Notes: generated from the sequence alone by a model not told the origin. Counted from the first letter of the stretch, positions 30,978-43,673 are shown. The stretch: 64,000 nucleotides of DNA from a virus (IMGVR_UViG_3300045988_139374:128001-192000), one strand, 5' to 3'. Program-made: numbers and translations.

Positions 30978-31967
30978 ATGACAAATGTAGAGATGATCTT
31001 AAAATTAATGGAACCAGAGCTCGATACTATTCAACTAGCTAAATTGAAGAACGTGCTTGACACAATCTTAAGAACATCAAGAAACGTCCTACCAAATGAA
31101 GAATTGATAGAACGATTCAAACAACAGAAGAGCTTAGTAGGATTGAAACCATCTTCATTAAATGGATATGTAACAGAGGTTAGAGCAATGGCAAGATACT
31201 ATAATGATAAAAGCTATTGCGATATTACTACTGCTGATATGAAGGATTATCTTGCTTATATGGTTAAAGCAAGAAATCTTCAAGCTGCTACATTACAGAC
31301 TAAGATTAGAGCTATTAGCTCTTTCTATGAATTCTTAGTAAATGAAGAATTTATTGATAAGAATCCTACTAATAAGATTGAAAGAGTCTTGTGTGAAAAG
31401 AAGATCAAGAAAGCTTTCTCTAATGCTGAGATGGATGCTATGAGAGCAGAATGCTTAACAAAGAGAGATAGAGCATTCTTTGAGTTCCTTTATTCTACTG
31501 GAACTAGACTTGCAGAAGTCATTGCCCTTAATGTAAAGGATATCAATTTCTCAGAAGGAGAAGTTATTGTCTTCGGTAAAGGACATAAGGAAAGAGTTGT
31601 TTATCTAAGTAACATTTGCATGAAATATTTACAAGAATACTTAGAAGAACGATATGCTCAACCAGATGAACCTTTATTTACACACTTGACAAATGGTCAT
31701 AGATTGACTCCTAGAGCAGCAGAATTAATTCTTAAAGATATTGGCGATAGAGTAGGAGTAGAAAATGTGCATCCTCACCGATTCCGTAGAACTTGTGCTA
31801 CTCACTTGATGGACAGAGGAATGCCTGTTGAACAGATTCGAGAAGTACTCGGTCACGCCAAGTTAGAGACTACTATGATTTATTGTAATGTGAATAGCAG
31901 TAAAGTTAAAGCTAGTTTTAAAGAAGCATTTAATAGAGATACATATTTTAATGATGTAAATATTTGA
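30978..31967 (+). CDS. tyrosine recombinase (XerC/D / Rci-like); candidate invertase of the fibre cassette locus
   Basis: SAM-like N-domain. Catalytic signature TGTRLAEV (R), GKGHKERVV (K), HPHRFRRT (HxxR), LGHAKLETTMIY (H..Y). Confidence 0.8.
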   Translation: MTNVEMILKLMEPELDTIQLAKLKNVLDTILRTSRNVLPNEELIERFKQQKSLVGLKPSSLNGYVTEVRAMARYYNDKSYCDITTADMKDYLAYMVKARNLQAATLQTKIRAISSFYEFLVNEEFIDKNPTNKIERVLCEKKIKKAFSNAEMDAMRAECLTKRDRAFFEFLYSTGTRLAEVIALNVKDINFSEGEVIVFGKGHKERVVYLSNICMKYLQEYLEERYAQPDEPLFTHLTNGHRLTPRAAELILKDIGDRVGVENVHPHRFRRTCATHLMDRGMPVEQIREVLGHAKLETTMIYCNVNSSKVKASFKEAFNRDTYFNDVNI

Positions 31968-32041: not shown

Positions 32042-33250
32042 ATGATGACGAAAAAAGAATTAATTGACTTTTTAGTTGTATCTGGATACACTAGTAAGTT
32101 AATTAAAAAGATCAAATATGTTGGAGTAAATTATAAAGGAGAAGATATATTTGAATTTACCCACATTGGTCGCACGATATTGATCAATGCTACCGATCTA
32201 GCAAACTATCTCAGAGAATATGGTAGCTATATTAGTAGATATGAAGATGAAGAGAAAGATAGCTTTAAATATTTGTGCCAAAAGTATAGTTCTCATATTC
32301 TTGAACCTATTGTAAGATATTGTGATAATATCTTTGATCCAAATGATTATATTGGGTATAGACATGCAGATGATCATTATACATTTGGAAGTTGCACTAT
32401 TTTAAAGAATCTTGCAAGTAAAGATTGGAAGTATAAAACTATCAATGCAGAATTTACTCCAAATAATGCAATAAAGTTCTTGACTACTACATATGTATAT
32501 ACAATGTGTAGATGCGGAACTGTTAATTATATTACATTAGACGATGCAATGTCTCAATACCCTACATGTACCAAATGTAGTTTGATCAGCCACATTACTT
32601 ATCAATTGAATCATGATAGAAGTGAATCTAATTCTAGTATTCACTTCTATGATGCAATTGATATTAATCATTGTAGATTTAAATGTATTAATTGCGGTAC
32701 TATATACACTGAAAATATGGAAAGTGTTGTGGTACAAAATAGGAGATATGGTAAATGCGTAGCTTGCTATGCTAAAGAGCAGATTCCGAAAATTATTGGA
32801 AAGAAGCATGGCAAACTTACAATAGTTGATGCAGTTCCTGTAATTGATGAGAATGATCATCATATATCTTACTATAATGCAAAATGCAAATGCAAGTGTG
32901 GAAGAACTGTATACGCTAAATATGAAATTAGACCTTCTGGGAACAAATTATACGGAACCAGCTGCAAATATTGCGATAAGAAATATCCTGGGTCCATGGA
33001 GGGTATTGATGCTCGTAAAGGAGAGAAGCATGGTAAGTTAAAAATCATAAAGAAAGCATATACATATTACAATGCTGATGGCATTAAAGATTTTAATACT
33101 GTGCAACGTGTAATCTGTCAATGTGAATGTGGAAACTTTACCATAGTTCCATTTAGTGCTCTTAAATTAGGTAAAGTAAAATCTTGTGGTCATTGCGGAA
33201 AGAAAATAACTCTTCCTTTCCCTTATGATTTGTCATTTTATGAAATGTAG
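32042..33250 (+). CDS. multi-zinc-ribbon repeat protein (paralogue family of 23063 and 62393)
   Basis: SD AAAGGAG. Repeated modules: G.KHGKLTIV..C.C.CG, CxxC pairs, and KSCGHCG. Confidence 0.5.
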   Translation: MMTKKELIDFLVVSGYTSKLIKKIKYVGVNYKGEDIFEFTHIGRTILINATDLANYLREYGSYISRYEDEEKDSFKYLCQKYSSHILEPIVRYCDNIFDPNDYIGYRHADDHYTFGSCTILKNLASKDWKYKTINAEFTPNNAIKFLTTTYVYTMCRCGTVNYITLDDAMSQYPTCTKCSLISHITYQLNHDRSESNSSIHFYDAIDINHCRFKCINCGTIYTENMESVVVQNRRYGKCVACYAKEQIPKIIGKKHGKLTIVDAVPVIDENDHHISYYNAKCKCKCGRTVYAKYEIRPSGNKLYGTSCKYCDKKYPGSMEGIDARKGEKHGKLKIIKKAYTYYNADGIKDFNTVQRVICQCECGNFTIVPFSALKLGKVKSCGHCGKKITLPFPYDLSFYEM

Positions 33251-33281
33251 TATAATAAAGAAGGTAAATAATCTTTAATAT

Positions 33282-33324
33282 AAAAGGAGTGGATTCCATT
33301 CGCCCACTCCTTTTATTTTTTTTT
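33282..33324 (+). terminator. rho-independent terminator
   Basis: Stem AAAAGGAGTGG / CCACTCCTTTT followed by a long T-run. Confidence 0.7.
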
Positions 33325-33394
33325 CAAAAAGTAGATTAAAATTCAACTTCATAGTAATCCATATTGTGATAATGGTAGAATGGGGGTTAAAATA

Positions 33395-34218
33395 ATGGCT
33401 ACAATTAGGCAAATTAAAGTTAAAGATACATTGTATGATATTTCACCGTCTCCTAGTGGTACGCTTGATACCACTACTAAAGATAATGCATTTGCTTCTA
33501 GTGATGTTGCTCAAGCAAGTGCAACTTCTTGGACTGATGTAGCTGCTCTTGCTGCAACTGAAACTAACAAGAGCATGTTCACAAAAGCTACTCAGATGAT
33601 GAAAAATACCAGATACCTATATAATATTATTGGTACTGGTTTTAGTACTTCTAGTACTATTAAGAAAGCTATTGATGGAAAAGCAGCATCTAATCATAGT
33701 CATGATCTGAGTGCTATGATCAATGGACTTTCTGTTGGATCTGCTACTCCTCAAGATGCGGATTATTATGTGTGCCAATATGCGGGGGGGGGAACACCAC
33801 TTCCACATATCATAGAAGGCCGATGACTGCTCTTTGGGATTATATTAAGTCTAAAGGAAATAGTACTTGGCAACCTAAAGGAAGCTATGCTGCTGCAAAC
33901 CATAGTCACAATTATGCAGGATCTGGAAGTGCTGGTGGATCTGCAAATAGTGCAGTAAAGTTGGATACAGCAACTGCTGGTTCTACTACTCAACCTGTAT
34001 ACTTTAGTGGTGGTAAACCTGTAGCAATTGGATATACTATTGCTAAGAGCGTTCCTGCTGATGCTAATTTTAGTAATACTTGGCGTGGAATTCAGAATAA
34101 TCTTACTTCTACAGCAACAGATCAGTCCCTATCTGCTGCTCAGGGTAAAATTTTGAAAGATGCTCTTGATAAAAAGACTGGAGTTAGTGTATCTGGTACC
34201 ACTGTAGTATTTGGATAA
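33395..34218 (+). pseudogene. tail-fibre paralogue A, split into two frames by a G9 tract
   Basis: ORFs 33380..33826 and 33772..34218 overlap at the G-run. One extra G (G10) gives a single product, ..YYVCQYAGGGNTTSTYHRRPMTALWDYIKSK..GTTVVFG*. The N-terminus is homologous to fibre B (FASSDVAQ, RYLYN..GTGFST, IDGKAA.NHSH). Confidence 0.7.
33784..33792 (+). repeat. G9 homopolymer (candidate phase-variation / slippage tract)
   Basis: Counted directly: tgc GGGGGGGGG aac. It is the only long G/C run I found in this AT-rich window. Confidence 0.85.
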
Positions 34219-34238
34219 TAAATATTATAAATAAAATT

Positions 34239-34275
34239 CCCATAGGATTTTTATATCCTATGGGATTCTTTTATA
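34239..34275 (+). terminator. terminator after fibre A (duplicated at 43769)
   Basis: 10-bp stem CCCATAGGAT / ATCCTATGGG followed by ATTCTTTTATA. Confidence 0.6.
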
Positions 34276-34276
34276 A

Positions 34277-34570
34277 TCTGACGCTTCTATTAAGATCAAA
34301 ACAAAGTCTGGAAAATTTTCATATAGTAGCACTTACGGAAGAAATTATACATTTTATGATTATGAAGGAATATTTATTTCTGCATCAATTGACGGTATTG
34401 CATTTAACAATGATAATTATTTGTATAATTTGTATTATCCATCATTATATTCAATTCGTGTTAGTGATAAATATATTATTAAATCTTTCAATATTATAAG
34501 TTCTGATTCAGGAGGAAATAATATTTCTGGTATTGGAGATAATTTAAACATTATTATTTGCTATATTTAA
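34277..34570 (+). other. start-less fibre C-terminal cassette (97 codons)
   Basis: Core TGACGCT at 34279-34285 is preceded by an in-frame TAA. Reads SDASIKIKTKSGKFSYSS..NLNIIICYI*. Contains no Met codon and has no SD. Its own terminator follows. Confidence 0.55.
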
Positions 34571-34577
34571 AATTATT

Positions 34578-34612
34578 CAATAGAGAAATCTCTATTGGTT
34601 TTATTTTTTTTT
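34578..34612 (+). terminator. rho-independent terminator after the cassette
   Basis: 9-bp stem CAATAGAGA / TCTCTATTG followed by a long T-run. Confidence 0.65.
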
Positions 34613-34638
34613 GTAGAATATATTAAAATACAATAATC

Positions 34639-34645
34639 TGACGCT
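34639..34645 (+). repeat. TGACGCT core site with only a stub (TAA-SDAITK*)
   Basis: AATAATCTGACGCTATTACGAAGTAG. Confidence 0.5.
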
Positions 34646-34675
34646 ATTACGAAGTAGTCTGAGAAATCTGCCAAA

Positions 34676-34720
34676 CCTCTATAAAAGGGCCTAAAATGGG
34701 CATTTTAAGAGGGTAAAATC
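34676..34720 (+). repeat. orphan copy of the fibre B leader/promoter-like sequence
   Basis: CTATAAAAGGGCCTAAAATGGGCATTTTAAGAGGGTAAAAT here, versus CTATAAATAGCCCAAAATGGGTAATTTTAAGAAAGGAAAT at 35123-35162 just upstream of the fibre B ATG. Confidence 0.5.
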
Positions 34721-34880
34721 GAGTGATTTTACACTTATTTTCAGTACTAAAAATTCAATTCAAGATAATAAATGTTTGATCAATAATCAATCTTAATTTA
34801 AAATATATAACAATATGGTAATGAAAGATGGTAGAAAAATCTTTTACCTTTAACAGCAGACACACAAACTATCTTTCATA

Positions 34881-35067
34881 CATGAAGCATTCGATTTAAG
34901 ATTTATTGTGAAGACCGCTTTTAAGAGAGTCCCTTGGACTATAAACTGTGAAGACTTCGTTTAAGAAAATCAGATAAATCCATATCCAAGCCATTAAATG
35001 TAGTAGCGTCAGATTAAAATTGTGAAGCCTGCTTATATAGATTTTTGTGAAGACGACGGTTAAGATT
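34881..35067 (+). promoter_or_regulatory. five direct repeats TGTGAAGMC-N-TTTAAGA flanking a core site
   Basis: Copies start at 34881 (CATGAAGCATTCGATTTAAGA), 34907, 34947, 35021 and 35046. The minus-orientation core at 35005-35011 lies between copies 3 and 4. Confidence 0.5.
35005..35011 (-). repeat. TGACGCT core site (minus orientation) with a 24-codon stub
   Basis: The reverse complement reads TAA TCT GAC GCT ACT ACA.. = SDATTFNGLDMDLSDFLKRSLHSL*. Confidence 0.5.
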
Positions 35068-35171
35068 ATTACTCGGTGTGGTCTTTATGATCACCCCGGA
35101 ATTTCTTTTTTAACAAAATATCACTATAAATAGCCCAAAATGGGTAATTTTAAGAAAGGAAATTTAATTTT

Positions 35172-36431
35172 ATGGCTATAATTGATAAAATTAAGGTTGG
35201 TAGCACTACCTATGATGTGTCGCCTTCTGCTTCTGGTACTCTGAACACTACTGGCACTACTAAGTTTGCTTCTAGTGACGTTGCTCAGGGAAATGCAACT
35301 GGCTGGACTAATGTAGATCAGATGACCACTGCTGATAACCATGCTACTCTGTTTACTAAGATCACTCAGATGGCAAAGAACGTCCGCTATCTGTACAATG
35401 TTCTTGGTACTGGCTTCTCCACTGGTTCTACTGTTAAGGGTCAGATTGATGGAAAAGCAGCAGCTAATCACTCTCACAAGGTTGCTCAACTGCCTACTTC
35501 TAGTACTCAAGTTAACTCCAATGACTATATTCCTACTTCTGCTCTGATCTATTCTATGAATCAGACTCTAACTTCGCTAAATGACGCTAGTAATAAACTT
35601 GGAGTCAGGATTTATAATACTAAATATGCAGTTGGAGGTATTCCTACCAAATCCCAATTTGCTGCAACTGACACTGTACAAAGCATTATTATTAAAATGC
35701 TAGGAGATATGGGTCAGAAACCCATTGACTCTTCTACACCTAATACAAGATATAAGTCTCAGAATCTTGGTACTTGGTCTAGTGTTAGTGATGTAGATAA
35801 TTTTCTTTATAGTTGTTGTCATGATACTGGTTATTATGGTGCTACTATTGGTAGTTATGTTACGATTAAAGATGGTGTATATAATAAAGAATGGATTATT
35901 GCTGGTTTTGATTGTGAAAAGAATCATAAAGCTTCCGATGGCAATACAAAGGATAATGGATATGGTATATGCTTAATACCTAAGAAGAGCTTAGGTAATT
36001 ATGTATGGGATTCTAATTCTATTATAAATGGATACAACGGATCTGAAATGCATAAGTCTACATTACCTGTAGTTGCGAATAATCTTAGAAAAGTATTAGG
36101 AAATCATCTTGTACAGCGTAATGTCCTTCTGAGTAATGCTGTAGATTCTAACTATTATGCTAAAGGCTATTTTTGGACTACTGCATATTGTACTCTTATG
36201 AGTACAGGACAAGTAACTGGTACATTTGCTTCTAATAGAAACAAGTATGATGATGGAGAAGCTAATTATAAACTTCCTTTGTTTAATTATGAAATATGGA
36301 GTTTTGATACCTGGGCCTGGTTGCGAGGGCTATTCGGCTACGGTGTCTATGGCCTTACCACTTCTGGTGGTTCTGGTTATGACATCTGTTACGTTAGTCA
36401 CGGTCTTCGCCCGCTCATTTATATTAGGTAA
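35172..36431 (+). CDS. tail-fibre paralogue B: constant N-terminal part, NDAS junction, and a C-terminal receptor-binding domain ending in the DGR variable region
   Basis: The N-terminal ~105 aa are homologous to fibre A. The in-frame core is at 35582-35588 (LNDASNK). The C-terminus WAWLRGLFGYGVYGLTTSGGSGYDICYVSHGLRPLIYIR* matches TR apart from changes at adenines. Confidence 0.8.
   Translation: MAIIDKIKVGSTTYDVSPSASGTLNTTGTTKFASSDVAQGNATGWTNVDQMTTADNHATLFTKITQMAKNVRYLYNVLGTGFSTGSTVKGQIDGKAAANHSHKVAQLPTSSTQVNSNDYIPTSALIYSMNQTLTSLNDASNKLGVRIYNTKYAVGGIPTKSQFAATDTVQSIIIKMLGDMGQKPIDSSTPNTRYKSQNLGTWSSVSDVDNFLYSCCHDTGYYGATIGSYVTIKDGVYNKEWIIAGFDCEKNHKASDGNTKDNGYGICLIPKKSLGNYVWDSNSIINGYNGSEMHKSTLPVVANNLRKVLGNHLVQRNVLLSNAVDSNYYAKGYFWTTAYCTLMSTGQVTGTFASNRNKYDDGEANYKLPLFNYEIWSFDTWAWLRGLFGYGVYGLTTSGGSGYDICYVSHGLRPLIYIR
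35580..35597 (+). repeat. in-frame core site inside fibre B (putative expression-site crossover)
   Basis: AAT GAC GCT AGT AAT AAA at codons 137-142. Shares AATGACGCT with the cassette heads. Confidence 0.55.
36317..36417 (+). repeat. DGR variable region (VR)
   Basis: 101 nt aligning to TR 37379-37497. There are 12 mismatches, all at TR adenines, plus one 18-nt gap. A GC-rich 3-prime end, GGTCTTCGCCCG, is shared (IMH-like). Confidence 0.85.
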
Positions 36432-36468
36432 TGGAACTAGCCACCTTGTGTGGCTAAGTGGAATTACC
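36427..36468 (+). promoter_or_regulatory. hairpin immediately 3-prime of VR (candidate DGR target-recognition structure and/or terminator)
   Basis: Inner stem TAGCCAC / GTGGCTA nested in outer stem GGTAAT / ATTACC. Overlaps the stop codon. Confidence 0.5.
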
Positions 36469-36537
36469 GTAATATAAATGAAAGGTGAAGGCTTAACGAG
36501 TAAATATATTATTAATATAAAATAAGAGGTGGTTTGT

Positions 36538-37347
36538 GTGTCTGTCGTTAAGGGTAAAAGAAATCAATCTGATGTTGAATATTTTGATTATGCATATAAA
36601 GTTGTGGAGCATATAACTAAATTTCTTTTATCTGATCTTGGGATTAAGAAAACTTATAGAGACTTAAAAGTTTTTACTTATAAATCTCATATGGAGGAAG
36701 CTGATAAAGAAGAATTTGAGCATTTAGTAAATAAGTATGATTTGGAATTGGAAACAGATTTTCCTAATTGGCTAATGTGCTATTATAGAGAAACATTATT
36801 AACAATCATGAGAGATCTAATCAATAATATATCTGCAGCTTATACACTATATCCAAATTCTGTTTATGAATTTAATATCAAGAAACAGTATATTTCTGAT
36901 TCTATAGCTAATTGTTTCGATTTAAAACATCAACTCCAATTAGTAATTAGAATATTTCCAGCAAATATGAAGAAATATATTCCATTTGTAAAAGAAATCG
37001 ATAAGGAAATAGAGCTTCTTAAACAGTGGCGAAAGAACTTTACAGGAATTTCTAAGAAGCATTGCTACAATCAAGATGAAATCGCTAAGAGAGATGCTAT
37101 TAAGAGAGTAAATAAGATTGAAGCAAAGAATGAGCGTAAACTTCAAGTGAACAATAATTTCCTTGTAGAATATATGAAAGCAGTTTACACTCAACAAGTG
37201 CTTATGGATAATCTATATCATACAACCTTCTATTATAATCAGCAAAATCAGTATTGCTCCGAACTGCCTATTGCAGCTTGTACATTCTTTGATCAAAATG
37301 GATATTATATTGGAGATTCTGCTCATGATTTTGTTACAACTAACTAA
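36538..37347 (+). CDS. avd: DGR accessory protein (Avd-like by position; longer than canonical Avd)
   Basis: Lies between the target gene and TR. Helical, basic/acidic composition. AAGAGG lies 8 nt before the in-frame GTG at 36538 (track start GTG 36529). Confidence 0.45.
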   Translation: MSVVKGKRNQSDVEYFDYAYKVVEHITKFLLSDLGIKKTYRDLKVFTYKSHMEEADKEEFEHLVNKYDLELETDFPNWLMCYYRETLLTIMRDLINNISAAYTLYPNSVYEFNIKKQYISDSIANCFDLKHQLQLVIRIFPANMKKYIPFVKEIDKEIELLKQWRKNFTGISKKHCYNQDEIAKRDAIKRVNKIEAKNERKLQVNNNFLVEYMKAVYTQQVLMDNLYHTTFYYNQQNQYCSELPIAACTFFDQNGYYIGDSAHDFVTTN

Positions 37348-37378
37348 ATAGTAAGGTGACTCTCTATAAATAATCTCG

Positions 37379-37497
37379 CTGGTTGCGAGGGCTATACGGC
37401 AACAACAACCTCAACAACAACAATGTCTATGGCCTTACCACTTCTGGTGGTTCTGATTATAACAACTGTAACAATAGTAACGGTCTTCGCCCGATCA
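37379..37497 (+). repeat. DGR template repeat (TR)
   Basis: 119 nt, rich in AAC/AAT codons in the VR frame (LRGLYGNNNLNNNNVYGLTTSGGSDYNNCNNSNGLRPI). Non-coding location upstream of RT. Confidence 0.85.
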
Positions 37498-37651
37498 ACA
37501 GCATCTTGGCAATTTAAGGATCGAAAGATCTGGCCAGGATGTCTGTATGAGGAGGGAGTTCCCTTTCCGAAAGGAAGAAACAATAAAGCTGGCTACGGTT
37601 CTGGCATTACGATGCTGAATCTATTGGGCTGGTATATTTTTTTTTATTTTT

Positions 37652-38938
37652 ATGATTATTGATTTTAGTAATGAAGATTGGGGCGAAAATCCCTGTGAAT
37701 ATACTGAAGGAAAATTAGATTCTATTGCAGATCCAGATAAATTATATCAATCTTATAGAAAAGCTTCTAAACCAATTTATTATAAAGCATCTACTCAAAG
37801 ATATGGATTAAATCTATTATCTAATATTGCTATTGCAAATGAAGCATTAAATAATGGATCTTATAAAATTGGAGATCCATATGAATTTATTCTCACAGAA
37901 CGCGGTAGAATTAGATATGTAAAAGCATTATATATGTTTGATCAAGTAGTGCAGAGATCTTTCAATGATAATGTATTAAATCCTGCTATTGCTAATAAGA
38001 TGATTTATGATAATGGAGCTTGTGTAAAAGGAAAAGGTGTTGCTTTTACAAGAATGAGATTTAAGCAGCATCTACAACAAGCATATTATCAATTTGGATA
38101 TGATGGTTATATAATGATCATCGATTTTTCTAAATATTTTGATAATATTCTTCATCAAGAAGCTTTAAAACAATTCGAACCTCTATTAACGCCAGAAGAA
38201 TACAATTTTCTTAAAATTACTTTTGATACATTCAAACTAGATGTATCTTATATGTCAGATGCAGAATATCTAGAAGCTAGAGATTCTCTGTTTAATCTTC
38301 TAGAATATTCTATGATGGCAAAAGAAAATTTCAAAGGATTAAAGCTTCTTGAAAAGTCTGTTGGAATTGGTAATCAAACTTCTCAAGGAACTGGAATGTA
38401 CTATCCTCATGAAATAGACAATTATGTGACTATAGTAAGAGGATATGGATTATATGGAAGGCATATGGATGATACATATGTATTTGCTAAAACTAAAGAA
38501 GAATTACAACAACTTCTTGAAGAAATAAAAGAATTGTGTAAGAATCTTGGAATTCATATTAATCTTAAGAAAACTAGAATAGAACCCATCAAGAATACAA
38601 TTTCATATCTTAAAATAAATTATAAAATTATTGAAACTGGAAGAGTATTTGAATTAGTCCCAAATAAAGTATTTAAAAGAGAAAAAGATAAATTAACAAA
38701 ATATAGGGATCTTTGCATTCAATATAAAATGACTGCTATTACAGTTCTTCAATGTTATCTTAGTTGGAGAGGTGTATATAATAAATTTGATTCTAAAAGA
38801 AAAATATATGCACTGGATTGCTATTTTAAAGATCTTTATTGTTTAGGATTTAGAGATACAAATCTATATGATTTGTTGCATTTCTATATGCGTGTAGAAA
38901 GAGAGAAATTAAATAACTATCCAGTCATGAAATATTAA
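37652..38938 (+). CDS. DGR reverse transcriptase
   Basis: IGNQTSQ (the DGR-RT hallmark) and YGRHMDDTYVF (YxDD box). No SD before the ATG. Confidence 0.85.
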   Translation: MIIDFSNEDWGENPCEYTEGKLDSIADPDKLYQSYRKASKPIYYKASTQRYGLNLLSNIAIANEALNNGSYKIGDPYEFILTERGRIRYVKALYMFDQVVQRSFNDNVLNPAIANKMIYDNGACVKGKGVAFTRMRFKQHLQQAYYQFGYDGYIMIIDFSKYFDNILHQEALKQFEPLLTPEEYNFLKITFDTFKLDVSYMSDAEYLEARDSLFNLLEYSMMAKENFKGLKLLEKSVGIGNQTSQGTGMYYPHEIDNYVTIVRGYGLYGRHMDDTYVFAKTKEELQQLLEEIKELCKNLGIHINLKKTRIEPIKNTISYLKINYKIIETGRVFELVPNKVFKREKDKLTKYRDLCIQYKMTAITVLQCYLSWRGVYNKFDSKRKIYALDCYFKDLYCLGFRDTNLYDLLHFYMRVEREKLNNYPVMKY

Positions 38939-38943
38939 AATAC

Positions 38944-38980
38944 TAGGTAAGGAATTTATTTCCTTACCTATTTTATTTTT
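38944..38980 (+). terminator. rho-independent terminator
   Basis: 10-bp stem TAGGTAAGGA / TCCTTACCTA followed by TTTTATTTTT. Confidence 0.7.
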
Positions 38981-39026
38981 AATTTTTTATTTGACAATTA
39001 ATTACTAAATTTAAGGAGGCTTATAT

Positions 39027-41641: not shown

Positions 41642-41875
41642 TTAGATATAAAATATTCTTACATTATATTTTACTATAGAAATAAGTTGTTTATTTAGAT
41701 CGATATTAAATGTAACGATTACATAATTTAAATAATCAGGGACGTAATATATGGCAACATATGGAAATCCAGAGATTGAATTTATGTCTGCACATATTGC
41801 AGATATTACAATTATATTGTTAAATGATTTCATTTCTGAAATATACATATCTCTTTGCTTAATAGAAGCGTCATT
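41642..41875 (-). other. start-less fibre cassette (77 codons), last of the minus-strand array
   Basis: Core at 41867-41873. Reads NDASIKQRDMYISEMK..NVRIFYI*. Confidence 0.55.
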
Positions 41876-42168
41876 TACATATCAAAATACCAACATTTGC
41901 ATGTAATAGGATTTTTACCATCGGTATATATTTCATTATCTGCAAGCCTTCCGACTTTTGTCATATAAACTTCACAGTTAGTAACTTTAAATGTACCATC
42001 ATCAAAATATCCACTGGCAGCTATTACAGGAAATGTATAATATCCAGCATTTCCTTTTGGATATAGTATTGGCATTGCTTGAATTATATATGCTTTAGAT
42101 AAGTACCCGCATGATGCATATTCACTATATGGAACTTTACAAGTATTAGTTTTAAGAGAAGCGTCATT
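41875..42168 (-). other. start-less fibre cassette (97 codons)
   Basis: Core at 42160-42166. Reads NDASLKTNTCKVPYSEY..CKCWYFDM*. Confidence 0.55.
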
Positions 42169-42496
42169 GTGCTTTACCTTTAATATAAAATATATTAATG
42201 ATGACTTCTGCATTTGATAAAGATGTTTTGTTAAAAGGCATAATTTTTTCATGCAATGTATCAATACCTAGTATATATAATTTTCTGCCAGTTGTCCAAA
42301 TACCAGTATTTGGATCTTGTGTTGAATCGATACTTGTAGATAGGAAAGTTAAATACATTCTAACAGTATTACTACAATATGCATAGTGAGCTATAATATC
42401 ATCATCAGTAACAGAAATATCTGTATCAAGAATAAAATAAGAAATATCATTCTTTACTCTACCTTGCTTCATTTTAATTTTAGTAGAAGCGTCATT
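42164..42496 (-). other. start-less fibre cassette (110 codons)
   Basis: Core at 42488-42494. Reads NDASTKIKMKQGRVKND..NIFYIKGKAQ*. Its TGA stop lies inside the next core. Confidence 0.55.
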
Positions 42497-42506
42497 TATA
42501 TTGGTA

Positions 42507-42767
42507 TTATAGATTTTTTAAATAAAATACAATTAATCTTCTAATAGATGAATGCATTGTTAAAGTATTATTAGGGAATCCTCTTATATCTATATAATAA
42601 CATGAATCATCTTCATCATACCATATATCTACATATTCAGCTTGCTCAGTTTTACCTGTTATTTTAGATTCAATATAAAGTCCAACAATTGGAATTCCTA
42701 AATAAAAAGCTTGTTTACTACTTTTTGGAAGAGTTAATTCTATATTATATATAATAGAAGCGTCATT
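42507..42767 (-). other. start-less fibre cassette (86 codons)
   Basis: Core at 42759-42765. Reads NDASIIYNIELTLPKSS..LIVFYLKNL*. Confidence 0.55.
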
Positions 42768-43065
42768 TACCAAAATAATAATATATTTTTATATTAAATG
42801 CTGTATTTACTTTTATTAATTTATAATCATTAATTTCAAACAATTGAATTATAGAATAAAAACTACCCTTTTCATATATTCCTTGATACATTGCTGGAAA
42901 TATATACTTAGGAGAATAATTGATAGGAAATAATGTTTGATTATACGTGGTACTATACACAGCAAATATTATATATGCTGATAGCCCAGATGGCACATCA
43001 TATCTTTCTTTATATATTCCATTCTCATCAGTTGTTACATCTTTACTCTTAATAGAAGCGTCATT
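42763..43065 (-). other. start-less fibre cassette (100 codons)
   Basis: Core at 43057-43063. Reads NDASIKSKDVTTDENGIYK..NIKIYYYFGK*. Its TGA stop lies inside the next core. Confidence 0.55.
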
Positions 43066-43384
43066 CACTAATATAATAGTATATTTTAATACCAATTTTA
43101 TCTGATGGCTTTATAAGCTGTCCATTGTCATTTATTTTATATACTTGAATTACAATATATCTATTAACAGCATCTGCAATTTTTCCATATGAGCCAGAAT
43201 ATATTGCAGGAATTATATATATTGGAACATTCATTTGATTTACTAGATTTCCAGTCATTGTGGATGTATTACTATATATCGCTAAAATATTTTTATGAGA
43301 ACTAATTCCAAATACGCCTAATGCAATTTTATATTCTCCACTGCTATCAGTTTCCACTATTTCATGTTTAATAGAAGCGTCAGA
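43061..43384 (-). other. start-less fibre cassette (107 codons)
   Basis: Core at 43376-43382. Reads SDASIKHEIVETDSSGEYK..GIKIYYYISE*, paralogous to the 42763 cassette. Its TGA stop lies inside the next core. Confidence 0.55.
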
Positions 43385-43388
43385 CTTG

Positions 43389-43673
43389 TTAAATATAATA
43401 TATAATAATTGAAACATTACGTCCATTACGAGATGCCGTGCTGCCATTAATATCTGATGTATATACAAGAATAGTTCTAATTACCCATTCAACATCTGTA
43501 GTTTTAAATATTTGAATTAATGGAATAGATGAACTGGTATTTACAGCTGGATTTATGTATGCATTTATTAAAATTCCATTAGTAAATTTATATAAGTAAT
43601 CATTGTCATTTAAACCATTTGAATATTTTCTAGGATATACGGTATCAGTTTTAATCTTAATAGAAGCGTCAAA
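43389..43673 (-). other. start-less fibre cassette (94 codons), first of the minus-strand array
   Basis: Core at 43665-43671, with TAA directly 5-prime. Reads FDASIKIKTDTVYPRKYS..NVSIIIYYI*. It contains no Met codon, so it is absent from the ORF track. I translated it by hand and found no internal stop. Confidence 0.55.

What the first reader, a model, noticed from the sequence alone, without database searches (positions are those of the whole stretch)
36317..38938. Complete diversity-generating retroelement targeting the last ~35 codons of fibre B
VR (36317-36417) and TR (37379-37497) align with 12 substitutions. Each one is at a TR adenine: 37396, 37419, 37422, 37423, 37456, 37461, 37465, 37470, 37473, 37474, 37479 and 37494. 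There are no non-adenine mismatches. In the VR frame, TR is packed with AAC/AAT codons. Both repeats share a GC-rich 3-prime end (GGTCTTCGCCCG), and similarity stops beyond it. A nested hairpin follows VR (36427-36468). The gene order is target, accessory ORF, TR, RT. The RT carries IGNQTSQ and YxDD (HMDD). These are the defining features of DGRs as established for Bordetella phage BPP-1. The notable point is that the DGR-diversified domain is itself the resident cassette of the putative switching locus. Inversion would therefore alternately expose or hide the hypervariable domain and would separate VR from TR/RT orientation-wise.
Basis: partly seen in the sequence, partly recalled or inferred. 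Interest (0 to 1): 0.72.

Follow-up and report, generated by a model that had tools for sequence, protein, structure and literature searches.

The report
Phage fibre retroelement inside cassette switch
A ~270-kb gut phage carries an apparently active diversity-generating retroelement that rewrites, and also lengthens or shortens, the tip of a tail-fibre protein, and that tip is one of at least nine interchangeable cassettes served by a movable promoter-plus-N-terminus module.

Summary
VR (36317-36413) and TR (37379-37493) differ only at TR adenines.

Nine TR/VR pairs from the window and relatives give 105 mismatches at A, 2 at C, 4 at T and 0 at G. Near-identical genomes differ almost only in VR, so the element looks active.

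All parts of a complete DGR are present:
- RT (HMDD, intact)
- a divergent Avd-like accessory protein of 272 aa
- a structured spacer RNA with compensatory pair changes
- a GC-rich IMH
- a hairpin with compensatory stem changes, found only at DGR-linked targets
- a DUF6273/C-type-lectin-like target domain

VR length varies (-18 to +3 nt against its own TR), always within the AAC tract. This behaviour is already described for about 7% of DGRs.

The switching claim is half right. The target domain is a cassette that starts at an 11-bp site (35582). However, the only rearrangement seen in relatives is relocation of a 943-944-bp promoter-plus-N-terminus module between directly repeated sites. Inversion across the 30-nt repeat was not seen. 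The DGR itself is a new member of a known kind; its coupling to a cassette system appears unreported.

The parts
35172..36431 (+). DGR target gene ('fibre B', 419 aa). The N-terminal 136 aa are shared (58% identity) with the neighbouring fibre A. The C-terminal 282 aa form a DUF6273/C-type-lectin-like receptor-binding domain.
   Evidence: AF2 model of residues 137-419 has pLDDT 87.6. Foldseek against BFVD gives E = 1e-19 to 1e-4 to phage receptor-binding and DUF6273 proteins. There are 526 homologues.
36317..36413 (+). Variable repeat (VR), the last ~33 codons before LIYIR-stop. It is 18 nt shorter than TR.
   Evidence: Variable residues coincide with the A-containing codons of TR in 48 distinct alleles.
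36402..36426 (+). IMH-like element: the GC-rich GGTCTTCGCCCG shared with TR, followed by VR-specific CTCATTTATATTA.
   Evidence: The CGCCCG|CTCAT (VR) versus CGCCCG|ATC (TR) signature is conserved in divergent relatives L017, L018 and L020.
36427..36468 (+). Nested hairpin just downstream of VR and overlapping the stop codon. The inner stem is 7 bp and the loop is a conserved CTTGT.
   Evidence: The stem differs while staying paired (TAGCCAC/GTGGCTA, CAGCCGC/GCGGCTG, GCGGGCACCAC/GTGGTGCCGC). The hairpin is absent downstream of homologous cassettes that have no DGR (L010-L013).
36538..37347 (+). Accessory gene (GTG start; 269-272 aa): a divergent Avd-like protein with a ~100-aa C-terminal extension.
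   Evidence: No Pfam, PDB or GenBank-phage sequence hit. The family has 619 representatives. hhalign gives 98.2% to Roseburia phage Shimadzu 'Avd' and 99.5% to the ORF upstream of the Acutalibacter phage RT. The best Foldseek hits are Avd-like bundles 2gsc/2rld plus 4dwl, all weak. The family sits next to RT in five divergent loci.
37379..37493 (+). Template repeat (TR), rich in AAC/AAT: (AAC)3 CTC (AAC)3 AAT ... AAC AAC TGT AAC AAT AGT AAC.
37494..37640 (+). IMH*-like sequence plus the structured spacer of the DGR RNA. It contains a long stem pairing the sequence just 3' of TR with downstream sequence, a GAAA-tetraloop hairpin, and a 3' hairpin with a conserved UUACGA loop.
   Evidence: Single-sequence fold z = -3.1. 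RNAalifold on 9 sequences predicts 46 pairs, 23 with compensatory double changes. No Rfam family matches.
37652..38938 (+). DGR reverse transcriptase (428 aa, intact). It carries IGNQTSQ and HMDD.
   Evidence: RVT_1 1e-12; phrog_1423 7e-50. The only PDB sequence match is BPP-1 bRT 8ub7. HMDD is conserved in the clade and is YMDD in L007. A 97%-identical 428-aa cluster has 172 members.
38944..38970 (+). Terminator-like hairpin closing the fibre B-accessory-TR-RT block. The scan found no terminator-like site between the fibre B stop and the RT stop.
35582..35592 (+). 11-bp recombination-type site TGACGCTAGTA at the N-terminal/C-terminal junction of fibre B (codons N-D-A-S-N).
   Evidence: The motif occurs 12 times in the window against 0.21 expected. 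Homology with cassette-only relatives starts here, and contig L002 starts exactly at the site.
34639..35581 (+). 943-bp 'expression module': site 34639(+), internal inverted site 35001(-), the upstream non-coding region and the first 136 codons of fibre B.
   Evidence: The same module (93% identity) is inserted precisely at different cassette sites in L011 and L012, and is absent from both positions in L010. Flanks are 98.7-100% identical.
30978..31967 (+). Tyrosine recombinase (XerC/D-like), the candidate enzyme for the cassette system. It is not part of the DGR.
   Evidence: Homologues 91-99% identical lie 1.3-2.5 kb from the cassette in L026-L028.

Best explanation
This is a complete and apparently active diversity-generating retroelement of a ~270-kb jumbo phage.

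Proposed mechanism: a transcript containing TR and its structured spacer is copied by the RT, presumably together with the Avd-like accessory protein, into cDNA in which template adenines are misread. The cDNA then replaces VR at the 3' end of the tail-fibre gene, guided by the GC-rich IMH and the downstream hairpin. This rewrites surface residues of a DUF6273/C-type-lectin-like receptor-binding domain.

Because the template holds tandem AAC codons, copying or integration slips in units of three bases, so the first VR loop also changes length. Conversion can be partial and 3'-biased.

The target domain is one of at least nine promoterless C-terminal cassettes. Each begins with the site TGACGCTWNTA. 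A 943-bp module carrying the upstream region and the fibre's N-terminus currently sits in front of the DGR cassette and so expresses it.

Shown here: the anatomy, adenine-specific and length variation between near-identical genomes, RNA and DNA structure with compensatory changes, and module relocation in relatives.

Inferred: the enzymology, the role of the accessory protein, slippage as the source of the indels, and the recombinase as the catalyst.
For: TR/VR in the window: 11 internal substitutions, all at A, plus an 18-nt gap; P = 1.5e-8.

Nine TR/VR pairs: 105 mismatches at A, 2 at C, 4 at T, 0 at G; pooled P = 1e-59.

VR tracks lineage-specific non-A changes of its own TR (TTC and AGC-TAC in L008/L009).

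L002 and L004 are 99.6% identical upstream and 100% identical downstream of VR, but 80.7% identical in VR, with different lengths.

In 48 distinct protein alleles, variable positions match A-containing TR codons (8-11 residue types at AAC/AAT), while non-A codons are nearly invariant.

VR minus TR length is -18, -6, -6, -3, 0, -6, 0, +3, -18, always within the AAC tract. L001-L004 share an identical AAC tract in TR.

P0394, P0395 and P0397 keep the same 6-codon deletion but differ in the 3' part of VR.

RT: the only PDB match is BPP-1 bRT; the nearest GenBank phage RTs are those of Firmicutes gut phages, several described as DGR-bearing.

Accessory protein: profile matches to Avd-type ORFs of those phages, and co-occurrence with RT in five divergent loci.

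Spacer RNA: 23 pairs with compensatory changes.

Hairpin: compensatory stem changes, and present only at DGR-linked targets.

Target fold; DUF6273 is described as C-type-lectin-like in DGR targets (PMC10743442, PMC11792537).

Cassette context.
Against: No reads were available, so heterogeneity within one population was not seen. All variation is between assemblies.

The catalytic box is HMDD rather than the usual YxDD.

The accessory protein does not match Pfam Avd or bAvd by sequence, and its structural model is of modest quality (pLDDT 63; Foldseek E = 0.25-1.3).

Six of 111 mismatches are not at adenines.

The PDB fold search of the target gave only weak C-type-lectin hits.

Module relocation was demonstrated in relatives whose loci contain no RT, not in a locus shown to carry the DGR. 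In DGR-type clusters the unfused state is inferred only from ~250-aa ORF calls.
Confidence: 0.92

Rival explanations
1. The element is a fossil DGR. TR and VR diverged by past retrohoming, but it is no longer active in this phage.
For: The catalytic motif is HMDD, not YxDD. No read-level data were available. The VR of the window still carries an 18-nt deletion relative to TR.
Against: The RT ORF is intact and HMDD is conserved in all nine close relatives, which nevertheless carry different VRs. L002 and L004 are 99.6-100% identical in the flanks but differ in VR. Three proteins sharing the window's deletion differ in the 3' part of VR.
Confidence: 0.05
2. The VR length differences do not arise during retrohoming. 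They come from replication slippage in TR DNA (VR records an older TR length) or from ordinary deletions in VR selected afterwards.
For: TR length itself differs between lineages (111, 114 and 117 nt), and the position of the CTC codon within the AAC tract shifts. So the TR tract does change over time.
Against: L001-L004 share an identical AAC tract in TR but have VRs of 108, 108, 111 and 114 nt, with gaps at different places. VR tracts are scrambled by mutagenesis and are poor substrates for replication slippage. The same pattern (3n indels next to AAC) was reported across DGRs and attributed to RT slippage (PMC5758913).
Confidence: 0.2
3. One reading: the fibre B gene is an invertible segment bounded by the 30-40-nt inverted repeat (34840-34879 / 36522-36561). 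Flipping would hide the hypervariable domain and reverse VR relative to TR and RT.
For: The inverted repeat is real (2 matches against 0 expected) and is conserved in relatives. A tyrosine recombinase is encoded 3 kb upstream.
Against: Window, L001, L014, L015 and L016 all show the same orientation. The left arm lies inside the mobile module and also occurs in L011/L012, where no partner arm or DGR is present. The observed recombination junctions are the TGACGCT sites, not this repeat.
Confidence: 0.05
4. The repeat pair is not a DGR. It is a duplicated gene fragment diverging by ordinary mutation or gene conversion, next to an unrelated RT such as a defence RT, retron or group II intron.
For: The RT gives weak generic hits to DRT, retron and group II models.
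Against: All those hits are far below their family cut-offs. 95% of 111 mismatches fall on adenines. No Rfam intron or retron RNA matches. The TR copy is non-coding and lies between the accessory gene and the RT, as in DGRs.
Confidence: 0.01

Closest known systems
Bordetella phage BPP-1 DGR (mtd-avd-TR-brt)
   Same: Gene order is target-accessory-TR-RT. VR lies at the 3' end of a tail-fibre gene. Differences are adenine-specific. There is a GC-rich IMH, with IMH* differing just past it. A hairpin follows VR, and a structured spacer lies between TR and RT. bRT (8ub7) is the only PDB sequence match of the RT.
   Different: RT similarity to bRT is weak (E = 2e-6). The catalytic box is HMDD instead of YMDD. 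The accessory protein is 272 aa with no sequence match to bAvd. The hairpin loop is CTTGT. The target domain is DUF6273-type, not Mtd-type. VR length varies. The host phage is a ~270-kb jumbo phage. The target is one cassette of a recombination system.
DGRs of Firmicutes gut phages with DUF6273 targets (Roseburia phage Shimadzu, Acutalibacter phage Fontainebleau, Faecalibacterium phages, phages nd4/nd12)
   Same: These are the nearest RTs in GenBank phages (24-35% identity). The gene order tail fibre-Avd-TR-RT is the same. The accessory proteins are homologous by profile comparison. Their targets end in DUF6273 (PMC10743442, PMC11792537).
   Different: Identity is only about 30%. Those phages are 39-62 kb. 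The accessory protein here has an extra ~100 C-terminal residues. No cassette system is reported for those targets.
DGRs with TR/VR length differences (Wu et al. 2018, NAR; PMC5758913)
   Same: About 7% of surveyed DGRs show indels, mostly multiples of 3 and next to AAC, which the authors attributed to RT slippage. The pattern here is the same.
   Different: Here the behaviour is seen as a population series (-18 to +3 nt), with the AAC tract of TR identical in four near-identical genomes. A deletion also persists while the 3' part of VR keeps changing.
Phage tail-fibre shufflons using tyrosine recombinases (Rin of Bifidobacterium and Eggerthella prophages; the BV01-like phage shufflon) and the R64 Rci shufflon
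   Same: A tyrosine recombinase lies next to an array of alternative C-terminal receptor-binding cassettes, each preceded by a short asymmetric repeat at the constant/variable junction (PMC6109161, PMC13596623).
   Different: Those systems work by inversion. Here the rearrangement documented in relatives is relocation of a 943-944-bp promoter-plus-N-terminus module between directly repeated sites. One cassette is additionally a DGR target. In Eggerthella prophages, shufflon and DGR occur in different clades.

Membership tests
Diversity-generating retroelement (DGR) | TR/VR pair whose differences fall almost only on TR adenines | tested here: met
   Window: 11 of 11 internal substitutions at A (P = 1.5e-8). 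Nine pairs: 105 at A, 2 at C, 4 at T, 0 at G.
Diversity-generating retroelement (DGR) | Reverse transcriptase of the DGR type next to TR (motif 4 I/LGxxxSQ, catalytic xxDD) | tested here: met
   IGNQTSQ and HMDD are present. The only PDB sequence match is BPP-1 bRT. The nearest GenBank phage RTs are from Firmicutes gut phages, several described as DGR-bearing. Scores against retron, DRT and group II models are far below their cut-offs. No RT phylogeny was computed.
Diversity-generating retroelement (DGR) | VR lies within, usually at the 3' end of, a protein-coding target, while TR is non-coding | tested here: met
   VR occupies codons 383-414 of the 419-aa ORF. TR lies in the 37348-37651 intergenic stretch.
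Diversity-generating retroelement (DGR) | IMH/IMH* pair (GC-rich end shared, then divergent) and an inverted repeat downstream of VR | tested here: met
   GGTCTTCGCCCG is shared. The first base beyond it differs consistently (C in VR, A in TR) in all relatives. The hairpin at 36427-36468 shows compensatory stem changes and is present only at DGR-linked targets. Its function in homing could not be tested.
Diversity-generating retroelement (DGR) | Accessory variability determinant (Avd-type helical bundle) encoded next to TR | tested here: inconclusive
   No hit to Pfam Avd or to bAvd by sequence. hhalign gives 98.2% and 99.5% to the Avd-position ORFs of two gut-phage DGRs; the Shimadzu ORF is called Avd only by its depositors. 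The top Foldseek hits are Avd-like bundles but weak, and the model has pLDDT 63.
Diversity-generating retroelement (DGR) | Variable residues displayed on a C-type-lectin-like (or Ig-like) ligand-binding fold | tested here: met
   The model has pLDDT 87.6. There are strong BFVD matches to DUF6273 and receptor-binding proteins. DUF6273 was reported as C-type-lectin-like with VR at its C-terminus. Direct PDB C-type-lectin hits are weak.
Diversity-generating retroelement (DGR) | VR hypervariable between otherwise near-identical genomes (evidence of activity) | tested here: met
   L002 versus L004: flanks 99.6-100% identical, VR 80.7%. There are 48 distinct alleles with variation confined to A-containing codons.
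Diversity-generating retroelement (DGR) | RT-dependent mutagenic retrohoming demonstrated | not testable with these tools
   This requires propagating the phage or a reconstituted system.
Tyrosine-recombinase tail-fibre shufflon (Rin/Rci type) | Tyrosine recombinase adjacent to an array of alternative C-terminal cassettes, each preceded by a short repeated site | tested here: met
   Recombinase at 30978-31967. There are 12 sites against 0.21 expected, and 9 in-frame cassettes. The recombinase lies next to the cassettes in L026-L028.
Tyrosine-recombinase tail-fibre shufflon (Rin/Rci type) | Switching by inversion between inverted sites | tested here: inconclusive
   Sites occur in both orientations. 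The only rearrangement documented among near-identical relatives is insertion or excision of the 943-944-bp module between direct sites. No inverted isoform was seen.

The most novel reading that the evidence does not exclude
The phage runs a two-tier host-range system. A mobile 943-bp promoter-plus-N-terminus module is moved by a tyrosine recombinase among at least nine promoterless C-terminal fibre cassettes. One of those cassettes carries its own DGR, which rewrites it in both sequence and length. The DGR cassette may be diversified while silent and then switched on. Alternatively, the DGR may be driven only when the module's promoter sits in front of it.
Probability: 0.35. Interest if true: 0.8.

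Novelty: new variant of a known kind. Interest (0 to 1): 0.6.

Why it matters
The DGR on its own is a typical gut-phage DGR and adds a well-documented jumbo-phage example.

Three features are of wider use:
- A natural population series shows in-frame length change at the AAC tract while that tract of TR stays identical, plus persistence of a deletion while the 3' part of VR keeps changing. This bears on how cDNA is made and integrated (slippage, and partial 3'-biased conversion).
- The accessory protein belongs to a family with 619 representatives at 50% clustering that Pfam's Avd model does not detect. Annotation pipelines that look for Avd by Pfam would miss such accessory genes.
- The DGR target is embedded in a site-specific cassette system whose moving part is the promoter-plus-N-terminus. 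This couples discrete switching with continuous hypermutation on a single receptor-binding protein. I found no report of that combination in the searchable literature.

Tried and rejected
- Megablast of 33000-39000 against GenBank phages found nothing.
- The RT pattern scan of IMG/VR found nothing. The TR-core scan of IMG/VR also found nothing, and the metagenome scan found one contig.
- A genome-contig scan with the target profile found nothing, so there is no host clue.
- Pfam, NCBIfam, PHROGs and PADLOC gave no family for the target or the accessory protein.
- A PDB sequence search with the 61-sequence accessory profile gave only spurious coiled-coil hits.
- Look-up of the Anaerovibrio RT homologue P0302 failed.
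- Candidate inverted VR copies in L022/L023 were rejected. Their mismatches fall on all four bases, so they are paralogous, non-diversified copies.
- I first read AATCTGACGCT as a possible promoter motif because it recurs at 43-44 kb. I dropped this once each site proved to open an in-frame cassette and to be the exact junction of module insertion.
- The longer RT ORFs called in relatives (463-504 aa) were treated as read-through of the non-coding TR-spacer. The alignment to bRT starts at residue 22 of the 428-aa form.

Full report
**Observation.** I re-aligned the two repeats. All 12 are adenines, and there is no non-adenine mismatch.

Two points need adding. First, TR is 18 nt longer than VR. 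In the VR reading frame, TR reads W L R G L Y G N N N L N N N N V Y G L T T S G G S D Y N N C N N S N G L R P. VR reads W L R G L F G Y G V Y G L T T S G G S G Y D I C Y V S H G L R P. Six codons of the (AAC)3-CTC-(AAC)3-AAT tract therefore have no counterpart in VR.

Second, the difference at 37494 (A in TR, C in VR) lies immediately after the shared CGCCCG. It is identical in all relatives, including distant ones. It is the first IMH/IMH* difference, not a mutagenesis event.

The probability that 11 random substitutions all fall on the 23 adenines among 96 aligned TR bases is 1.5e-8. The window holds only one VR.

**Surroundings.** The window has about 32% G+C. It encodes topoisomerase II subunits, a replicative helicase, RNA-polymerase beta-like subunits and a 3432-aa protein. 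The exact target protein is recorded on a 270,993-bp contig, and relatives lie on 190-277-kb contigs. This is a jumbo phage. At least one related DGR locus comes from a record labelled gut metagenome.

The gene order is:
- target 35172-36431
- accessory ORF 36538-37347
- TR
- a 154-nt spacer
- RT 37652-38938
- a terminator-like hairpin at 38944-38970

The scan found no terminator-like site between the fibre B stop and the RT stop.

**Is it an active DGR?** I recovered relatives through the accessory and target proteins. They are 92-94% identical to the window across the whole locus, and lower within the target gene.

Nine TR/VR pairs give 105 mismatches at TR adenines, 2 at C, 4 at T and 0 at G. 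The pooled P is 1e-59.

VR follows lineage-specific non-adenine changes of its own TR. In L008/L009, for example, CTC has become TTC and AGT-AAC has become AGC-TAC in both repeats. Homing therefore continued after those lineages split.

L002 and L004 are 99.6% identical in the 230 nt upstream of VR and 100% identical in the 250 nt downstream. They are only 80.7% identical in VR.

Across 48 distinct C-terminal alleles of close relatives, AAC and AAT codons show 8-11 residue types and GAT/TAT show 5-7. Codons without adenine are nearly invariant.

The RT ORF is intact. A cluster of 172 sequences, 97% identical, has the same 428-aa length.

**The parts.**

*RT.* It matches RVT_1 and phrog_1423. 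Its only sequence match in the PDB is the BPP-1 bRT of the bRT-Avd-RNA structures (8ub7). Matches to group II, retron and DRT models are far below their cut-offs.

The motifs IGNQTSQ and HMDD are invariant in the close clade, and the 70%-identity relative L007 has YMDD. Since the clade's VRs keep changing, HMDD appears compatible with activity.

*Accessory protein.* It has no Pfam, NCBIfam, PHROG or PDB match, and no tblastn match in 50,697 GenBank phage records. It does belong to a family with 619 representatives at 50% clustering, whose conserved core is the N-terminal ~170 residues.

A profile of that family aligns with the ORF annotated Avd in Roseburia phage Shimadzu (98.2%, E = 5e-14). 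It also aligns with the ORF immediately upstream of the RT in Acutalibacter phage Fontainebleau (99.5%, E = 3e-23). Neither of those ORFs hits Pfam Avd either.

The AF2 model is modest (pLDDT 63). Its best fold matches by probability are the Avd-like bundles 2gsc and 2rld, with bAvd 4dwl lower, and all have weak E-values.

The family lies next to the RT in five further divergent loci (L007, L017, L018, L020/L021, L022/L023). I regard it as a divergent Avd homologue with a ~100-residue C-terminal extension, but this remains an inference.

*RNA.* The spacer folds better than shuffled controls (z = -3.1). An alignment of nine sequences, including the divergent L007 and L017, gives 46 pairs, of which 23 show compensatory double changes. 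The structure has three elements:
- a long stem pairing the sequence just 3' of TR with downstream sequence
- a hairpin with a GAAA tetraloop
- a 3' hairpin with a conserved UUACGA loop

No Rfam family matches.

*Target-site DNA.* The hairpin at 36427-36468 keeps its CTTGT loop while the stem changes in a compensatory way in L017 and L018. It is absent after the homologous stop codon in the four loci that lack a DGR (L010-L013). This is the pattern expected for a homing signal.

*Target fold.* Residues 137-419 model well (pLDDT 87.6). They match phage receptor-binding and DUF6273 proteins in BFVD at E = 1e-19 to 1e-4. DUF6273 has been described as a C-type-lectin-like domain with the DGR variable region at its C-terminal end (PMC10743442, PMC11792537). 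PDB hits to C-type lectins are individually weak.

**Length variation.** VR minus TR length is -18 (window), -6, -6, -3, 0, -6, 0, +3 and -18 nt. The difference always falls inside the AAC tract. L001-L004 share an identical AAC tract in TR, yet their VRs are 108, 108, 111 and 114 nt, with gaps at different places. Among 104 homologues the first loop ranges from about 2 to 14 residues.

This is not new in kind. Wu et al. (PMC5758913) found indels in about 7% of DGRs. Most were multiples of three and adjacent to AAC, and the authors proposed RT slippage. Here the behaviour appears as a population series.

In addition, three proteins (P0394, which is the window's protein, P0395 and P0397) keep the same six-codon deletion and the same L-F-G-Y-G. 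They differ further 3' (SGYDICYVSH, SDYYYCYSSH, SGYYYCYSSH). That fits partial conversion biased towards the 3' end of VR, but this is an inference.

**The switching claim.** The 30-nt inverted repeat (34840-34869 / 36532-36561) is real. It has the same arrangement in the window, L001 and L014-L016. Its left arm also occurs in L011 and L012, which have no partner arm and no DGR nearby. I found no flipped isoform.

A different signal turned up. The motif TGACGCTWNTA occurs 12 times against 0.21 expected. One copy lies at 35582-35592, exactly where fibre B stops resembling fibre A and where homology to cassette-only relatives begins.

Nine of the sites open, in the same frame (D-A-S/T...), ORFs of 76-282 aa. 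Several end in similar motifs (IYYI, IFYI, ICYI; LIYIR for the DGR cassette). Their positions are:
- 34279(+)
- 35582(+), which is the DGR target
- six on the minus strand at 41863-43661
- 43817(+)

Three relatives (L010, L011, L012) are 98.7-100% identical in the flanks compared. They differ by the precise insertion of a 943-944-bp segment bounded by the site. In L011 the segment sits in front of one cassette. In L012 it sits in front of another. In L010 it is absent from both places.

That segment is 93% identical to window 34639-35581. It carries the fibre's upstream region, its first 136 codons and an internal inverted site. In the window, L001 and L014-L016 the module sits in front of the DGR cassette. 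Contig L002 starts exactly at the site.

In relatives without a DGR, the homologous cassette is unfused, and the recombinase (91-99% identical) lies 1.3-2.5 kb away. Within 90%-identity clusters of the DGR-type cassette, 10 of the 32 listed members are ~250-aa ORFs that start at an internal Met. This is the expected call for an unfused cassette. Their VRs still differ in the DGR manner.

The mechanism and its consequence were wrong: module relocation does not alter the relative orientation of VR, TR and RT. An inversion with the distant minus-strand sites would carry VR, accessory gene, TR and RT together.

Whether a silent cassette is still accompanied by the RT is therefore not shown.

**Comparison and verdict.** The element meets every sequence-level criterion of a DGR that I could test. 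The exception is a clean match of the accessory protein to Avd.

Its nearest relatives among GenBank phage records are the DGRs of Firmicutes gut phages with DUF6273 targets, at about 30% RT identity. As a DGR it is a new member of a known kind, and VR length variation at AAC tracts is already described.

Two things go beyond the known picture. One is the embedding of the target in a tyrosine-recombinase cassette system. The other is that the moving element of that system appears to be the promoter-plus-N-terminus module rather than an invertible segment.

Phage tail-fibre shufflons with tyrosine recombinases are known (Rin, BV01-like). In Eggerthella prophages, shufflon and DGR occur in separate clades. 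Two literature searches found no report of the two acting on one fibre. That absence is limited to the library searched.

Noticed in passing
window 34279, 34639, 35001(-), 35582, 41863(-), 42484(-), 42755(-), 43053(-), 43372(-), 43661(-), 43817; also 7461: The 11-bp motif TGACGCTWNTA occurs 12 times against 0.21 expected. Nine copies open in-frame promoterless ORFs of 76-282 aa. These look like alternative tail-fibre C-terminal cassettes, and the DGR target is one of them.
   Followed up: yes
L010 7369/10605; L011 6425-7369; L012 10607-11550; window 34639-35581: A 943-944-bp module (site, internal inverted site, upstream region and fibre N-terminal 136 codons) is inserted precisely at different cassette sites in three phage genomes whose compared flanks are 98.7-100% identical. 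The moving part is the promoter-plus-N-terminus, not an invertible cassette.
   Followed up: yes
window 34840-34869 (-) and 36532-36561 (+): A 30-nt inverted repeat links the inside of the module to the ribosome-binding site and first 8 codons (M-S-V-V-K-G-K-R) of the accessory gene. Both arms are conserved in relatives, and the left arm also occurs where there is no DGR. Its function is unexplained. One possibility is long-range RNA pairing that masks the accessory gene's start. Another is a relic of a past rearrangement.
   Followed up: partly
window 33784-33792 (fibre A, ORFs 33380-33826 and 33772-34218): A G9 run in a 32% G+C genome splits fibre A into two overlapping frames. L001 also has G9 and L014 has G8, and the gene is split at the same place in all three. 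This is a candidate for programmed frameshifting, transcriptional slippage or a phase-variable tract.
   Followed up: partly
window 34903-35065: Four direct copies of TTGTGAAGAC-like 20-24-nt repeats lie upstream of the fibre B start, inside the module. They look like binding sites for a regulator or for the recombinase.
   Followed up: no
window 34679-34717 and 35124-35162: Two copies, 72% alike, of CTATAAA-GGCC-AAAATGGG-TTTTAAGA. The second lies immediately upstream of the fibre B start codon. They may be a duplicated promoter or 5'-leader element within the module.
   Followed up: no
window 36432-38925 versus L013 1136-1256: In relative L013 the homologous cassette is followed directly by the dCMP deaminase gene. 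The accessory-TR-RT block (about 2.5 kb) therefore behaves as an insertion/deletion. Its right edge lies within the last codons of the RT.
   Followed up: partly
proteins P0032 and P0411 (relatives): Two target proteins end in ...GLRPINSILAI. They run from VR into the sequence that follows TR. This is either an assembler collapse of the two repeats or a real VR-TR recombination that deletes the accessory gene.
   Followed up: no
window 38459-38470 (RT residues HMDD): The catalytic box is HMDD in all nine close relatives and YMDD in the 70%-identity relative L007. This is an unusual first residue for an RT that appears to be active.
   Followed up: partly
relatives L001-L004 versus window, TR 37401-37424: The TR tract itself differs between lineages: (AAC)3-CTC-(AAC)3-AAT in the window, (AAC)4-CTC-(AAC)2-AAT in L001-L004, and lengths of 111 and 117 nt in L015 and L014. 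The template is therefore also subject to repeat-unit changes.
   Followed up: partly
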